This document shows positions 2,045 through 4,476 of a stretch of 5,714 bases of DNA, one piece after another. This stretch comes from a virus. The stretch's first letter is position 1. Each line of letters opens with the position of its first letter. The DNA lies in IMG/VR virus record IMGVR_UViG_3300045988_000358, positions 1-5,714 of that record; one strand, written 5' to 3'. Below the pieces are notes generated by a model that had not been told where the DNA came from, did no database searches, and saw only the letters and a list, made by a program, of their open reading frames with translations. A program made the position numbers and the translations under genes.

Positions 2045-2069
2045 TTTGCTCCCCCGCTTTCTATTGTGG

Positions 2070-2113
2070 ATTGTATCATGTATTTTGTCGCATGTCAATT
2101 GTTTTTTGTTTTG
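2070..2113 (-). promoter_or_regulatory. Near-consensus sigma70/sigmaA-type promoter with an A-rich UP-like element. It is the probable main phage promoter.
   Basis: The minus strand reads AAAACAAAAAACAA-TTGACA-tgcgacaaaatacatga-TACAAT. The -35 TTGACA is at 2098..2093, the spacer is exactly 17 nt, and the -10 TACAAT is at 2075..2070, preceded by TGa (extended -10). The A-tract covers 2113..2099. The predicted transcription start is near 2063, about 20 nt upstream of the peptidase ATG. Confidence 0.6.
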
Positions 2114-2116
2114 AAC

Positions 2117-2130
2117 GGCGCTTTAGCGCC
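2117..2130. repeat. Short GC hairpin GGCGC-TTTA-GCGCC. It contains the first copy of the CGCTTTAGCG motif.
   Basis: A perfect 5-bp inverted repeat with a 4-nt loop lies directly upstream of the UP-like A-tract. CGCTTTAGCG (2119..2128) recurs exactly at 2325..2334. Confidence 0.7.
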
Positions 2131-2190
2131 TTGCCGTGCGGAGCGCATGCGGAGCTCGGCTAAATCCATTCCTTTTTAGCGCTGTGCGCG

Positions 2191-2303
2191 TTTTCAACAC
2201 TTTCAACACTTTCAACATGTTTTCAACAAAATGTTGCACAATGATTTTCGTCATTTTGACGGACTTTCAACAATTCAACAATTTTTCAACAAAATTTTCA
2301 ACA
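2191..2303. repeat. Iteron array: eight copies of TTCAACA (extended consensus TTTTCAACA; TGTTGAAAA on the coding strand).
   Basis: TTCAACA starts at 2193, 2202, 2211 and 2222 (block 1, spacings 9, 9, 11) and at 2266, 2274, 2285 and 2297 (block 2, spacings 8, 11, 12). A degenerate ninth copy, TTCAACT, is at 2351..2357. A partial inverted copy, TGTTGCA, is at 2232..2238. Confidence 0.9.
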
Positions 2304-2441
2304 GCATTTTTTGCTTTTTATTTACGCTTTAGCGTTAAATTTTAGTACTTTTCAACTTTTCCACTACCTCTACTACTACTCCTACAACAAGTTATATATT
2401 TTACGGCGCTTGTGAGCTTGCGAACAATAGCGCTGAAGAGC

Positions 2442-2484
2442 CGCGCGTGCGCGCGTGCGCGCTTCGCGCGCGTGTGCACGCGCG
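2442..2484. repeat. GC-rich imperfect palindrome that alternates pyrimidine and purine (potential cruciform/hairpin, Z-DNA-prone).
   Basis: 2442..2460 pairs with 2466..2484 across the loop gcttc. This gives 19 stacked positions: 16 Watson-Crick pairs and 3 G.T pairs (2451/2475, 2453/2473, 2456/2470). 2442..2462 (21 nt) and 2466..2484 (19 nt) are each perfect Y-R alternations made of CG, TG and CA steps. Confidence 0.85.
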
Positions 2485-2544
2485 ATAAAGGTATAGCTAT
2501 TTGATAGACTGAATAGATTGATACATGGATTCTTTAAATGGTAA

Positions 2545-2578
2545 TAGCCCAGTACCTTACTTGATAGGTACTGGGCTA
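2545..2578 (-). terminator. 13-bp perfect stem-loop 19 nt downstream of the VP4 stop. Candidate end-of-operon terminator or ssDNA structural element.
   Basis: TAGCCCAGTACCT (2545..2557) and AGGTACTGGGCTA (2566..2578) are exact reverse complements around an 8-nt loop. On the coding strand the stem is followed by TTACCATTTAAAG, which is only a weak U-tract. Confidence 0.35.
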
Positions 2579-2596
2579 GGTGACACCATGACACTG

Positions 2597-3616
2597 TTAA
2601 AGTGTCCCTTTTTTCTTCATTTGCTTCTTTATCACTCTCTCTTTTGTTTTGCATTGTTCTGCAAAGTCTGCGTTTTCGTACTTTAGTCGGTTTTCTGCGA
2701 TTGCCGCTTTCTGCCTGTTCTGTTTAATTCTCCACAATCTTTGTGGGTTTTCAGCTTCCATCATTTTTTCATAATAACGTGGAATTTGTGCGTGTTTGCC
2801 GTTTGTGCATTGGATATACCCTCGCTTCCAGATTTCTGCTTTGTGTTCTTGATAGTAGTGGTCTCCTAGACCCGGTTTAAGGCTCATACATGCGAATGGC
2901 TTTGCTTGCCCTAGTTCGTAGTATGCATTTGCTTTTTTACCGTCTATCTCGTACATTTTTTTTGTGACGTATCCTGCAACATATCTATATGTTTCTGGCA
3001 CTGCTTGTGCTATCTGTATTTGACCCATGCCCCATAGGTCTTCTAGCCATTTGCTTGTGAAGTATCCGTTGTGTTGTATTTTGTATAGGTGTTCTAGGTC
3101 TGTTGGCTGCCATCCATACAGTATCATGTGATAATGCGGTCTAGCTGTCTGTTCTCCGTACTCTCCCGCTATAAAATAGCGTAATTTGCCCTTATAAGCC
3201 TTTCTGAGGCGTTTTAAGAACTTTTGAACGTCAGTATACAGTAACGTTTGGACGCTTTCAGGGCGCTTCTCTCCCGGCTTCCAGACGTATTGCACTTTTC
3301 GCATTATTTCACCTGTGTTTACTATCATGCCCGGTACATGGTCATCGTCATAAGTTAATGTTATAAACCAGACTTCTTCTTTTGGATAATCTCGTGCTTC
3401 TAATTCTATTCGTGTTGTCCAGTCCTCTCTTTGTCTGATTCTGCATCCGATGCACTGCCCGCATGGTATCAACATGACATCTTTCCTATACATCAAATCC
3501 TCATATTTTAGCTGTCTTCCCGATATTTCGGAAAAGCGGGAGAGTGAATACACCCTCCCGCTGATATTTTTATTGTTCGGGTTGTACAGCCTTATTAATG
3601 GCTTGTAACAACTCAT
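2597..3616 (-). CDS. VP4: Replication initiation protein VP4 (HUH rolling-circle endonuclease, phiX174 gpA family), 339 aa.
   Basis: The N-terminus is MSCYKPL. There is a Cys cluster (PCGQCIGCR), RCR motif 1 (FITLTYDD), the HUH motif (RPHYHMILYG) and a double-tyrosine catalytic motif (YVAGYVTKK; compare phiX174 A, YVAKYVNKK). The ATG overlaps the VP2 stop as ATGA at 3613..3616. Confidence 0.93.
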   Translation of the reverse strand: MSCYKPLIRLYNPNNKNISGRVYSLSRFSEISGRQLKYEDLMYRKDVMLIPCGQCIGCRIRQREDWTTRIELEARDYPKEEVWFITLTYDDDHVPGMIVNTGEIMRKVQYVWKPGEKRPESVQTLLYTDVQKFLKRLRKAYKGKLRYFIAGEYGEQTARPHYHMILYGWQPTDLEHLYKIQHNGYFTSKWLEDLWGMGQIQIAQAVPETYRYVAGYVTKKMYEIDGKKANAYYELGQAKPFACMSLKPGLGDHYYQEHKAEIWKRGYIQCTNGKHAQIPRYYEKMMEAENPQRLWRIKQNRQKAAIAENRLKYENADFAEQCKTKERVIKKQMKKKGTL

Positions 3617-4476
3617 CTTAGATAATCACCTGGCTTTCTCTTTTCTCCGTATGCTCCAGTTTTGTCCTGCGGCTTCATGCCCCTACTTTGTTCTTTGACT
3701 TTTCCCGTTTTTTCTGTTGCTTTTTCGATTGCTTTGCTTGTGTCGTTTCCGACTTCTGTAAGTGCTTTTTGCAGTCCGTATGGCGTCATGTGTGTCGAAC
3801 TAAGCATCTGCTGCCAGCTTTCTGCTGCATTATACCAATCACTTTTACTCCAGCTTGAGCTTGAGTATGCATTTGGTACAAACCCACCGCTTCTGCTTAC
3901 TCCTAGTGCGCTACTGCTTGCTAAACCCATGCTTGCACCGCTGATTGTTCCTGCACTTCCTCCTGGTGTGCTTGCGCCGCCGTTTGAGAACGCTAAGATA
4001 GGGTTAAGTCCTGCCTTTCGCATGTCTTCAACTGCTCGCTGGTAACTTGTATTGCTCATGTGCTCTTGCCATTCACGGTTTGCTAGTGCTTCTGCACTGT
4101 TGTAGTTCATTGCTACGCTGTTTTCAATATGGTTGTATACGCCTTGCATGATTGCTTGTAAGGTGTTGTATCCCATTTGTTTTAGCATGCTTTGGCTGTT
4201 ATATTTACCTTGCATGGCAGCTTCTTGCCCTTGGTATGCGTATGCCTGTTTAAGCCAGTCATTTACCTGTTGGATGTTTGTTCCGGCTTGGCTTCCACTC
4301 TCTGAGTGTCCACCGCCTTGGCTTGTGCTCCCGCCTTGGCTTTGGCTGTTGCCTGTCTGACCCCATCCACCAAAAGCTCCAGCAACGTTTTTTGCTGCTC
4401 CGGCGATTGTTCCGACCGTATTCGCTACGTTTCCTGCTACGTTTAGTGCTGTTAAGATTCCTGATAATACTCCCAT
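3613..4476 (-). CDS. VP2: Minor capsid / DNA pilot protein VP2, 287 aa.
   Basis: The N-terminus is Gly/Ala/Val-rich and hydrophobic (MGVLSGILTALNVAGNVANTVGTIAGAAKNVAGAFGG, with a 12-nt tandem gctacgttt repeat at 4424..4444). An S/Q/G low-complexity tract follows. The conserved core HMSNTSYQRAVEDMRKAGLNPILAF matches the sntayQRa..Dm..AGLNP.La signature I recall for gokushovirus VP2. The gene lies directly after VP1. Confidence 0.85.
   Translation of the reverse strand: MGVLSGILTALNVAGNVANTVGTIAGAAKNVAGAFGGWGQTGNSQSQGGSTSQGGGHSESGSQAGTNIQQVNDWLKQAYAYQGQEAAMQGKYNSQSMLKQMGYNTLQAIMQGVYNHIENSVAMNYNSAEALANREWQEHMSNTSYQRAVEDMRKAGLNPILAFSNGGASTPGGSAGTISGASMGLASSSALGVSRSGGFVPNAYSSSSWSKSDWYNAAESWQQMLSSTHMTPYGLQKALTEVGNDTSKAIEKATEKTGKVKEQSRGMKPQDKTGAYGEKRKPGDYLR

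What the first reader, a model, noticed from the sequence alone, without database searches (positions are those of the whole stretch)
2191..2357. Array of eight TTCAACA iterons plus one degenerate TTCAAC copy (consensus TTTTCAACA) in two blocks, inside an unusually long non-coding region
Microvirus genomes are normally packed edge to edge, yet 2045..2596 (552 nt, about 10% of the genome) has no credible ORF. Its AT-rich half contains eight exact TTCAACA heptamers in a single orientation. They are spaced 8-12 bp apart, roughly one helical turn. Four lie at 2193-2228 and four at 2266-2303, with a degenerate ninth copy at 2351. The phased T-tracts should also bend the DNA intrinsically. The array lies 95-260 bp upstream of the main promoter. 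Iterons next to a small stem-loop are the standard origin architecture of HUH-Rep replicons such as CRESS-DNA viruses and many RCR plasmids, but this layout is not part of the phiX174 origin paradigm. The nearest textbook host motifs are only near-matches. The relaxed DnaA box TTWTNCACA matches 8/9 for the four TTTTCAACA copies, but the mismatch falls at a conserved C. The Spo0A 0A box TGNCGAA matches 6/7 as TGTTGAA. I therefore treat host-factor titration or host control as an open possibility, not a call.
Basis: partly seen in the sequence, partly recalled or inferred. Interest (0 to 1): 0.7.

Follow-up and report, generated by a model that had tools for sequence, protein, structure and literature searches.

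The report
Host-origin-like DnaA module in a microvirus
The repeated TTCAACA heptamers are most likely binding sites for the host replication initiator DnaA, and they form part of a 215-bp cassette that copies the layout of the host chromosome's own replication origin, which has not been described for this family of small single-stranded DNA phages.

Summary
Eight exact TTCAACA copies lie at 2193-2303 where 1.1 are expected, and three more degenerate copies lie nearby.

The heptamers are probably not Rep iterons. They are the core of 9-mers TTTTCAACA. At the same positions relatives carry TTTTCCACA or TTATCCACA, the consensus DnaA box.

The array ends in a tandem box pair (2349-2365), a 4-bp spacer, CTA CTA CTA CTC CTA (complement 3'-GAT-5', the DnaA-trio consensus) and an AT-rich stretch. 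Register and orientation match the Bacillus subtilis origin "basal unwinding system".

The same TTTTCAACA arrays ending in CTACTACTA fill the dnaA-dnaN spacer of four gut Oscillospiraceae, Ruminococcus and Clostridiales genomes. Their DnaA differs at three of six base-contact residues.

The cassette (2188-2406) is present in more than 100 gut gokushoviruses with Rep identity of 38-100%. It is found in both orientations and on either side of the Rep gene. A separate stem-loop (2545-2578), supported by covariation, keeps a fixed orientation and is the better candidate for the Rep nick site.

Best reading: the phage recruits host DnaA to melt its replicative form. No DnaA binding or unwinding has been shown experimentally. 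I found no published description.

The parts
2188..2406 (+). Whole cassette: DnaA-box array, DnaA-trios and AT-rich end. This is the unit that is conserved and that flips orientation among relatives.
   Evidence: blastn finds this stretch in 43 phage records at 70-95% identity. It is the only megablast match to KT264790. The boundaries come from comparing L128 and L173 (inverted) with the window.
2191..2240 (+). Box block 1: TTTTCAACA (2191), CTTTCAACA (2200), CTTTCAACA (2209), TTTTCAACA (2220), TGTTGCACA (2232).
   Evidence: Relatives have TTTTCCACA at the position of the fourth box.
2249..2261 (.). Small palindrome CGTCA-TTT-TGACG between blocks 1 and 2. It is conserved in the close clade only; its role is unknown.
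2264..2303 (+). Box block 2: CTTTCAACA (2264), AATTCAACA (2272), TTTTCAACA (2283), TTTTCAACA (2295).
   Evidence: Relatives L015, L112 and L009 have TTATCCACA (exact DnaA-box consensus) and GTATCAACA at the third and fourth positions.
2349..2365 (+). Tandem box pair next to the trios: TTTTCAACT (2349-2357) and TTTTCCACT (2357-2365), 8 bp start to start. B. subtilis boxes 6 and 7 have the same register.
   Evidence: The B. subtilis scaffold sequence is in PMC8287927 supplement file 5.
2366..2369 (+). 4-bp spacer ACCT (GCCC, CCCC, CTCC or TTGC in relatives), at the position of the GC cluster of bacterial origins.
   Evidence: PMC8287927.
2370..2390 (-). DnaA-trio repeats: the + strand reads CTA CTA CTA CTC CTA CAA CAA, so the minus strand reads 3'-GAT GAT GAT GAG GAT GTT GTT-5'.
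   Evidence: This is the only CTACTACTA in the genome. 92 of 98 unique relatives have (CTA) three or more times at this place. The consensus 3'-GAT-5' is from PMC8287927 and PMC6669920.
2391..2404 (.). AT-rich stretch GTTATATATTTTAC, the candidate DNA-unwinding element.
   Evidence: The 16-mer starting at 2389 is the second least stable duplex window of the whole genome.
2545..2587 (-). Conserved stem-loop (arms 2545-2557 and 2566-2578, loop TACTTGAT) plus invariant flank GGTGTCA in gene sense (2581-2587). It is a candidate VP4 nick site and lies outside the cassette, in fixed orientation.
   Evidence: Present in 102 of 106 genomes. Five of eight pairs show compensatory changes. The loop complement ACTTGATA equals the phiX174 nick context.
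2442..2484 (.). GC-rich alternating palindrome between the hairpin and the cassette. It is present in many relatives but not all; function unknown.
2070..2098 (-). Sigma-70-type promoter TTGACA-17-TACAAT with TG, for the endolysin and small-gene block.
   Evidence: The equivalent perfect promoter in L001 is shown.

Best explanation
The heptamers are the cores of DnaA boxes of the type used by the host, TTTTCAACA. This is a lineage variant of TTATCCACA. Together with a tandem box pair, a 4-bp spacer, five or more DnaA-trios and an AT-rich stretch, they form a 215-bp cassette. The cassette copies the DnaA-box/DnaA-trio 'basal unwinding system' of the Firmicutes chromosomal origin, the dnaA-dnaN spacer.

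Inferred mechanism: on the double-stranded replicative form, host ATP-DnaA binds the 11 boxes. It oligomerises from the trio-proximal box pair onto the minus-strand trios and melts the adjacent AT-rich DNA.

Inferred consequence: the melted DNA either gives the host helicase and replisome an entry point, allowing Rep-independent theta-type amplification or maintenance of the replicative form, or helps expose the nearby VP4 stem-loop for nicking, or both.

Shown: sequence architecture, conservation, and identity of motif and layout with bacterial origins. Inferred: DnaA binding, unwinding, and the role in the phage cycle.
For: 1. Box identity. At the same positions relatives interchange TTTTCAACA, TTTTCCACA, TTATCCACA (exact consensus) and TTATCAACA. 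Inverted TGTGGAAAA copies flank the array in some genomes.

2. Architecture. The window reads TTTTCAAC-TTTTCCACT / ACCT / CTA CTA CTA CTC CTA / AT-rich. B. subtilis reads TTATCCAC-AAATCCACA / GGCC / CTA CTA TTA CTT CTA CTA (PMC8287927 supplement). The two share the 8-bp box register, the 4-bp spacer and the relative orientation. The C. difficile trio CACCTACTACTATTACTACTATGA (PMC7561715) is similar.

3. All sequence rules of the published search program for this system are met: a box with at most 2 mismatches, a second box with at most 4, a spacer of at most 16 bp, and at least 3 NAN triplets.

4. Conservation. 92 of 98 unique cassettes have (CTA) three or more times directly after the box pair. 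The boxes and trios are the best conserved columns, at least 90% identical.

5. Host origins. In L224, L241, L246 and L273 (Oscillospiraceae, Ruminococcus, Clostridiales) the spacer between DnaA and DnaN holds 3-19 forward TTWTCMACA boxes, against 0-2 in the rest of each locus. The genes are confirmed by Pfam, except DnaN of L241, which is confirmed only by a tblastn match to its start. Each spacer ends in TTTTCAACA-(G)TTTCAACA-CCCC-CTACTACTACTACTA-AT-rich or a close variant.

6. Those DnaA proteins carry P423N/V/A, T435S and H439Y at three of six base-contact residues (residue list in PMC7561715). This fits an altered box preference.

7. The second least stable 16-mer of the genome follows the trios.

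8. The cassette works as a module. It occurs in both orientations and on either side of VP4, as expected for a double-stranded DNA element. Even so, its AT-rich end faces the conserved VP4 hairpin in 88 of 94 genomes.

9. Among phage records chosen by Rep similarity alone, 40 of 46 with VP4 at least 44.8% identical carry it.
Against: - There are no binding or unwinding data.
- No copy in the window itself matches TTWTNCACA exactly. The mismatch is at a normally invariant C, so binding rests on the inference that the host DnaA accepts A there.
Only four origin loci were recovered among 120, the rest being mostly chance hits, so the host assignment is indicative only.
- Similarity between phage cassettes and host origins is only at motif level, about 70% over 110-195 nt. 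Capture from the host versus convergence is unresolved.
- The AT-rich stretch is short, about 14 bp.
- Six genomes have the cassette flipped so that the AT-rich end points away from the hairpin. This weakens the 'opens the nick site' version.
- The phage keeps a full HUH Rep, so a second, DnaA-fired origin is not obviously needed.
- A narrow scan for TTATCCACA-plus-trio modules in other microviruses found only one, probably by chance.
Confidence: 0.65

Rival explanations
1. DnaA sponge or DnaA-dependent regulatory region. The boxes bind host DnaA, but the purpose is to titrate it away from the host origin (as datA does) or to let DnaA level control the neighbouring promoter. No origin firing or unwinding on the phage DNA is involved.
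For: The array holds many same-sense weak boxes on a molecule that reaches high copy number. It lies 95-205 bp upstream of a strong promoter. Small clusters of three or more TTTTCAACA boxes also occur in intergenic regions away from dnaA in Oscillospiraceae and Ruminococcaceae contigs. Orientation independence fits.
Against: A sponge or operator needs no trios, no fixed 4-bp spacer and no AT-rich end. Yet these are the most conserved parts: 92 of 98 cassettes have the trios. The cassette also moves relative to promoters; in clade B it lies upstream of VP4.
Confidence: 0.15
2. Iterons for the phage Rep (VP4), as in CRESS-DNA viruses and RCR plasmids. Rep binds the repeats and is thereby positioned to nick a nearby stem-loop.
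For: The array always lies next to the VP4 gene and within 45-380 nt of a conserved stem-loop. Direct repeats spaced about one helical turn apart are typical of iterons.
Against: The motif is the same in genomes whose VP4 is 38-100% identical, so there is no co-variation with Rep. The same arrays with the same trio ending lie between dnaA and dnaN in bacterial chromosomes that carry no phage genes. Copies are replaced by canonical DnaA boxes. The array flips relative to the hairpin among genomes with 92-95% identical VP4.
Confidence: 0.05
3. Array of Spo0A (0A-box-like) sites that couples phage development to host sporulation, as in phi29.
For: TGTTGAA matches TGNCGAA at 6 of 7 positions. From memory, 0A boxes overlap DnaA boxes in the B. 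subtilis origin. Many Oscillospirales form spores.
Against: None of the eight copies has the C of TGNCGAA. Variants in relatives go to TGTGGAA or TGTGGATAA, not TGTCGAA. The trio-proximal position defines these sites functionally as DnaA boxes in the host origins.
Confidence: 0.04
4. Passenger DNA. A piece of host origin was picked up by recombination and is carried without function, or the repeats bind some other, unidentified host factor.
For: Similarity to host origins is at motif level. Presence, orientation and position of the cassette vary.
Against: The cassette is retained in more than 100 genomes of about 5.7 kb from human, pig, monkey, dog, mink and raccoon guts. It is the most conserved DNA between genomes too diverged elsewhere for megablast. 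Phage cassettes share features absent from the host origins seen here (CTACAACAAGTTA, AAAATGTTGCACAA), which indicates long residence under selection.
Confidence: 0.08

Closest known systems
Basal unwinding system of the Firmicutes chromosomal origin (B. subtilis incC boxes 6 and 7 plus DnaA-trios; C. difficile oriC2)
   Same: Tandem DnaA boxes in an 8-bp register, a 4-bp spacer, three or more 3'-GAT-5' triplets on the strand opposite 5'-TTATCCACA-3', then AT-rich DNA, with further upstream boxes in the same sense.
   Different: The module sits on a 5.7-kb single-stranded DNA phage genome, not between dnaA and dnaN. The boxes are the TTTTCAACA variant. The AT-rich stretch is shorter. The module is found in both orientations relative to its neighbours.
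dnaA-dnaN spacers of gut Oscillospiraceae, Ruminococcus and Clostridiales genomes (L224, L241, L246, L273)
   Same: They use the same box variant, mix it in the same way with TTTTCCACA and TTATCCACA, end in the same box pair, C-rich spacer and CTACTACTA, and have a similar block layout.
   Different: The host regions are longer (295-1275 nt) and hold more boxes. The host box pairs are contiguous (9-bp register), against 8 bp in most phages. The phage-specific tail CTA CAA CAA G TTA is absent.
Plasmid and phage origins that use host DnaA boxes beside their own initiator (P1 oriR, pSC101, RK2 oriV; from general knowledge)
   Same: A mobile replicon carries DnaA boxes so that host DnaA assists origin opening or helicase delivery alongside an element-encoded initiator.
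   Different: Those are theta replicons with iteron-binding Rep proteins and only one to a few DnaA boxes. As far as I know none has a box pair, trios and unwinding element arranged as in a chromosome, and none is an HUH rolling-circle single-stranded DNA phage.
f1/M13 origin 'domain B' enhancer bound by IHF (from general knowledge)
   Same: A host-factor-binding region beside the nick site of a single-stranded DNA phage stimulates the action of the phage initiator.
   Different: The factor is IHF rather than DnaA, and the enhancer has no box or trio architecture.
phiX174 origin (30 bp inside gene A)
   Same: The separate stem-loop at 2545-2578 carries ACTTGATA, identical to the phiX174 nick context AACTTG^ATAT.
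   Different: The heptamer array has no counterpart in phiX174. In the window the phiX-like octamer lies on the strand antisense to the genes.

Membership tests
Bacterial origin basal unwinding system (DnaA boxes plus DnaA-trios) | A DnaA box with at most 2 mismatches to TTATCCACA (or to the species' own box) next to the trios | tested here: met
   TTTTCCACT at 2357-2365 has 2 mismatches. Most relatives have TTTTCCACA, with 1 mismatch.
Bacterial origin basal unwinding system (DnaA boxes plus DnaA-trios) | Optional second tandem box with at most 4 mismatches and at most 3 bp from the first | tested here: met
   TTTTCAACT at 2349-2357 has 3 mismatches and overlaps the first box by 1 nt. This gives the same 8-bp register as B. 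subtilis TTATCCAC-AAATCCACA.
Bacterial origin basal unwinding system (DnaA boxes plus DnaA-trios) | Spacer of at most 16 bp between the better box and the first trio, typically a GC-rich stretch of about 4 bp | tested here: met
   The spacer is ACCT (4 bp). Relatives have GCCC, CCCC, CTCC, TTGC and others, and the length of 4 is kept in most. GC content is only moderate in the window.
Bacterial origin basal unwinding system (DnaA boxes plus DnaA-trios) | At least three consecutive triplets 3'-NAN-5' (consensus 3'-GAT-5') on the strand opposite 5'-TTATCCACA-3' | tested here: met
   The minus strand reads 3'-GAT GAT GAT GAG GAT-5' at 2370-2384. 92 of 98 relatives have three or more GAT. Orientation was checked against the B. 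subtilis scaffold oligos.
Bacterial origin basal unwinding system (DnaA boxes plus DnaA-trios) | AT-rich unwinding region directly beyond the trios | tested here: met
   The window 2389-2404 ranks second of 5659 for low duplex stability.
Bacterial origin basal unwinding system (DnaA boxes plus DnaA-trios) | ATP-DnaA binds the boxes, oligomerises on the trios and separates the strands | not testable with these tools
   This needs purified host DnaA, footprinting and a strand-separation assay.
HUH-Rep iteron origin (CRESS viruses, pMV158-type RCR plasmids) | The iteron sequence is specific to, and co-varies with, the cognate Rep | tested here: not met
   The heptamer is the same with VP4 identity from 38% to 100%, and the same arrays occur in bacterial chromosomal origins.
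HUH-Rep iteron origin (CRESS viruses, pMV158-type RCR plasmids) | Iterons in fixed position and orientation beside the nick-site stem-loop | tested here: not met
   The distance to the conserved hairpin ranges from 43 to 377 nt, and the orientation flips among genomes with 92-95% identical VP4.
Spo0A 0A-box cluster | Matches to TGNCGAA | tested here: not met
   0 of 8 copies match. All have T in place of C, and variants in relatives are TGTGGAA-type.
phiX174-type origin | Nick context CAACTTG^ATA on the viral (gene-sense) strand | tested here: inconclusive
   The context is not in the array. ACTTGATA is in the loop of the 2545-2578 hairpin, but on the strand antisense to the genes. The packaged strand is unknown.

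The most novel reading that the evidence does not exclude
A clade of gut gokushoviruses carries, beside its rolling-circle Rep and nick-site hairpin, a second origin of cellular type. This origin is a mimic of the host chromosomal origin and is fired by host DnaA. It would let the replicative form replicate, or persist like a minichromosome in step with the host cell cycle, without Rep. That would give these 'lytic' microviruses a plasmid-like carrier state. The box type would also read out their uncultured Oscillospirales hosts.
Probability: 0.3. Interest if true: 0.9.

Novelty: new variant of a known kind. Interest (0 to 1): 0.8.

Why it matters
Microviruses are textbook rolling-circle replicons. 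They are thought to need only their HUH Rep plus host elongation and priming factors. No role for DnaA and no origin of the bacterial-chromosome type has been described for them. Three full-text searches (Microviridae + DnaA box; gokushovirus + DnaA; microvirus + DnaA + origin of replication) found no report of DnaA boxes in a microvirus.

If the cassette works as its architecture suggests, four things follow:
- It gives a testable mechanism for replication or persistence of the replicative form in the abundant, uncultured gut gokushoviruses.
- It provides a sequence-based host predictor, because the phage boxes match the host origin boxes.
- It points to a lineage-specific DnaA-box variant (TTTTCAACA) in Oscillospirales that goes with substitutions at DnaA base-contact residues.
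- It separates the non-coding region into a host-factor module and a distinct hairpin that is a candidate nick site. This makes the long-unknown gokushovirus origin directly testable.

Tried and rejected
- **Non-coding RNA or tRNA.** There is no Rfam match in the region and no tRNA.
- **Coding potential.** The 43-aa and 90-aa minus-strand ORFs in 2045-2654 match no Pfam or PHROG family. ORFs that cross the cassette border cannot be conserved, because the cassette flips.
- **Site-specific inversion switch.** I saw no inverted repeats at the cassette borders, and no recombinase is encoded. The flip is better explained by recombination between genomes.
- **Generalising to other microviruses.** An IMG/VR scan for TTATCCACA followed within 3-14 nt by CTACTACTA gave 79 loci. 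Only one was a microvirus (L391), and there the motif is embedded in a hairpin, probably by chance. Two genomes with about 36% identical VP4 (MG945868, PP511501) have no box array.
- **Prophage copies.** tblastn of the window's proteins against the 120 bacterial loci found nothing.
- **Direct homology to host origins.** blastn of phage cassettes against the host origins gives only repeat-level matches of about 70%. Capture from the host could not be shown.
- **IHF, CodY, PhoP-type and LytTR-type consensus sites.** I compared these by eye from memory, found no good fit, and did not pursue them.
- **Literature.** I searched for the 9-mer and for gokushovirus non-coding regions and found nothing relevant.

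Full report
**What the window is.** The 5714 bases are a circular genome of 5659 nt with a 55-nt terminal redundancy. All genes lie on the minus strand:
- major capsid protein (544 across the ends to 4515)
- pilot protein (4476-3613)
- Rep/VP4 (3616-2597; PF23343, phrog_942)
- an M15 endolysin (2044-1655)
- small ORFs, including VP8-like, VP5 and VP3 homologues

It is a gokushovirus-type microvirus. Its closest public relatives are human and pig gut gokushoviruses. The finding lies in the only long non-coding stretch, 2045-2596, between the VP4 stop and a strong minus-strand promoter (TTGACA 2098-2093, 17 nt, TG-TACAAT 2075-2070).

Eight exact TTCAACA copies lie at the stated positions, all on the + strand and none elsewhere. 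The expected number is 1.1, and 0 of 200 shuffles reach 8. The spacings are as stated. Read as 9-mers the copies are TTTTCAACA or CTTTCAACA. Three further related 9-mers exist: TGTTGCACA at 2232, TTTTCAACT at 2349 and TTTTCCACT at 2357.

**Conservation.** A blastn search with the non-coding region hits 63 phage records. The part that matches in most of them is 2190-2400, which is exactly the array. For KT264790 this is the only stretch of the whole genome that megablast can align. With 2185-2410 alone as query, 43 records match at 70-95% identity, all from mammalian gut samples.

- A pattern scan of IMG/VR gave 41 microvirus genomes with the array. Their VP4 is 38-100% identical to the window's.
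- In a sample chosen only by VP4 similarity, the 80 best loci of 232 confirmed, 76 loci were analysed. Of these, 55 have more than 600 nt of sequence after VP4, and all 55 carry the array.
- In the GenBank phage collection, 40 of the 46 records with VP4 at least 44.8% identical carry it. Most of the six without it are short records.
- Two genomes with about 36% identical VP4 lack it.

**The repeats behave as DnaA boxes.** Lining up 18 diverse cassettes shows that relatives carry TTTTCAACA, TTTTCCACA, TTATCCACA, TTATCAACA or GTATCAACA at the same positions. TTATCCACA is the exact DnaA-box consensus. Some genomes add inverted TGTGGAAAA copies at the edge. This is the variation expected of a DnaA-box family TTWTC[C/A]ACA. 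It is not what Rep iterons would show, since those should change with the Rep.

**The array ends in a complete unwinding module.** After the third block the + strand reads TTTTCAAC-TTTTCCACT, ACCT, CTA CTA CTA CTC CTA CAA CAA G, TTATATATTTTAC. The published definition of the bacterial 'basal unwinding system' has five parts (PMC8287927, PMC6669920, PMC7561715):
- a DnaA box with at most 2 mismatches
- an optional second tandem box
- a spacer of at most 16 bp, including a GC-rich stretch of about 4 bp
- at least three triplets 3'-NAN-5' with consensus 3'-GAT-5'
- AT-rich DNA beyond the triplets

The scaffold oligonucleotides in the supplement of PMC8287927 give the B. subtilis element as 5'-TTATCCACA-AATCCACA-GGCC-CTA CTA TTA CTT CTA CTA. 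The phage element has the same 8-bp register of the two boxes, the same 4-bp spacer and the same relative orientation of boxes and triplets.

Three further checks agree:
- CTACTACTA occurs once in the genome.
- 92 of 98 unique cassettes have (CTA) three or more times at this spot. A variable fourth triplet follows, then an invariant CTA CAA CAA G.
- The 16-mer that follows (2389-2404) is the second least stable duplex window of the genome.

**The same thing is found at bacterial chromosomal origins.** Four loci stand out:
- L224, uncultured Oscillospiraceae
- L241, Ruminococcus sp.
- L246, Clostridiales RUG098
- L273, Oscillospiraceae

In these the arrays fill the spacer between genes confirmed by Pfam as dnaA and dnaN. 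For L241, dnaN is confirmed only by a tblastn match to its start. The spacers hold 3-19 forward TTWTCMACA boxes, against 0-2 in the rest of each 4-8 kb locus. Each ends in TTTTCAACA-GTTTCAACA-CCCC-CTACTACTACTACTA-AT-rich or a close variant.

So in these bacteria TTTTCAACA occupies the positions that define DnaA boxes functionally. Their DnaA proteins read RDHSTIVY where E. coli and other Firmicutes read RDHTTV(L/I)H. Aligned to the E. coli domain IV structure 1J1V, three of the six base-contact residues differ: P423 to N, V or A; T435 to S; H439 to Y. PMC7561715 states that these six residues are conserved among Firmicutes and E. coli. This fits a shifted box preference and points to Oscillospirales as the probable hosts. 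That host call rests on four loci from a truncated scan.

**The cassette is a movable module.** In most genomes it lies after VP4 with TGTTGAA on the gene-sense strand. Six genomes with 92-95% identical VP4 have it in the same place but inverted. In a clade with 38-40% identical VP4 it lies between VP2 and VP4, again inverted relative to the genes. The flipped unit corresponds to window 2188-2406. I found no inverted repeats at its borders. A strand-specific single-stranded DNA or RNA role is therefore unlikely; a double-stranded DNA protein-binding role fits.

**A separate stem-loop.** A stem-loop at 2545-2578, preceded in gene sense by an invariant GGTGTCA, is present in 102 of 106 genomes. 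It always has the same orientation relative to VP4. It lies just after the VP4 stop in most genomes and just before the VP4 start in the 38-40% clade. Five of its eight consensus pairs show compensatory changes. Its loop, read on the window + strand, contains ACTTGATA, the octamer around the phiX174 nick (AACTTG^ATAT, origin feature at 4306).

This hairpin, not the array, is the better candidate for the VP4 nick site. In 88 of 94 genomes the AT-rich, trio end of the cassette points towards it.

**Mechanism proposed.** On the replicative form, host ATP-DnaA fills the boxes, extends from the box pair onto the minus-strand triplets and melts the AT-rich DNA. This could load the host helicase for theta-type replication or maintenance. 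It could instead help extrude the nearby hairpin for VP4. I cannot tell these apart. The bias of the AT-rich end towards the hairpin favours a link to VP4, while the six flipped genomes show that such a link is not strict. Binding, unwinding and biological role are all inferred.

**Rivals.**
- A pure DnaA sponge or operator does not explain the conserved triplets, spacer and AT-rich end.
- Rep iterons are contradicted by the lack of co-variation with VP4, by the bacterial origins and by the flipping.
- Spo0A boxes are contradicted by the constant T where C is required and by the direction of variation in relatives.
- Passenger DNA is contradicted by retention in more than 100 small genomes and by phage-specific conserved features.

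**Known or new.** Full-text searches for Microviridae or gokushovirus together with DnaA or DnaA box found no report of DnaA boxes in a microvirus. A recent paper on microvirus non-coding structures discusses only hairpins. The element belongs to a known kind, the DnaA-box/DnaA-trio module, but its presence in a rolling-circle single-stranded DNA phage is new as far as I can tell.

Noticed in passing
window 2545-2587 (minus-strand sense); the same element in 102 of 106 related genomes: A stem-loop supported by covariation, with invariant flank GGTGTCA and loop ATCAAGTA in gene sense, lies directly after the VP4 stop. In the 38-40% VP4 clade it lies directly before the VP4 start. On the antisense strand the loop reads ACTTGATA, identical to the phiX174 nick context. 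It is a candidate VP4 nick site. If the phiX analogy holds, the nicked and packaged strand would be antisense to the genes.
   Followed up: partly
L402 (PP511501, Dulem virus 161) 2960-3010; L401 (MG945868) 1140-1195: More distant microviruses have the same type of hairpin next to VP4. In PP511501 it is in the opposite orientation relative to the genes: gene sense reads stem-TACTTGTTC-stem-TGACACC. In MG945868 it is oriented as in the window. The orientation of the putative nick hairpin relative to the genes therefore seems to differ between lineages.
   Followed up: no
L224, L241, L246, L273 (DnaA C-terminal domains): The DnaA proteins of the four bacteria whose origins use TTTTCAACA boxes carry RDHSTIVY. 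They differ from E. coli and other Firmicutes at three of six base-contact residues (P423N/V/A, T435S, H439Y). This may be the determinant of a lineage-specific DnaA box.
   Followed up: partly
window 2442-2484: A GC-rich alternating purine-pyrimidine palindrome (CGCGCGTG repeats, 20-nt arms 85% complementary) lies between the hairpin and the cassette. It is present in many relatives but absent in L128. Its function is unknown; it may be a single-strand origin or a structural element.
   Followed up: no
window 2117-2130 and 2324-2335: Two small hairpins share the loop TTTA: GGCGC-TTTA-GCGCC and ACGC-TTTA-GCGT. One lies outside and one inside the cassette. The motif TAGCG recalls the CS-6 loop of plasmid single-strand origins, but that comparison is from memory only.
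   Followed up: no
L315 (Mesoaciditoga sp., WGFY01000063) 2430-2790: A TTTTCAACA array ends in TTTTCAACActTTCAACAgtacCTACTACTACTA plus AT-rich DNA, but it lies next to groES/groEL and a metallophosphatase gene rather than dnaA. It may be an origin separated from dnaA in a Thermotogota genome.
   Followed up: no
L213, L225, L233, L239, L269, L274, L308, L314: Intergenic clusters of three to six TTTTCAACA, TGTTGAAAA or TGTGGAAAA boxes occur away from dnaA-dnaN in Oscillospiraceae, Ruminococcaceae and Ruminococcus contigs. They may be DnaA-box clusters or DnaA-regulated promoters.
   Followed up: no
window 2065-2073 (minus strand): CAATCCACA, which resembles B. subtilis box 7 (AAATCCACA), overlaps the -10 and start region of the endolysin-operon promoter. 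It is not conserved in L001.
   Followed up: no
window, whole genome: The strand antisense to the genes is strongly T-rich: AT skew of the + strand is -0.4 to -0.65 in the coding flanks of the profiled stretch 1900-2750. This could bear on which strand is packaged.
   Followed up: no
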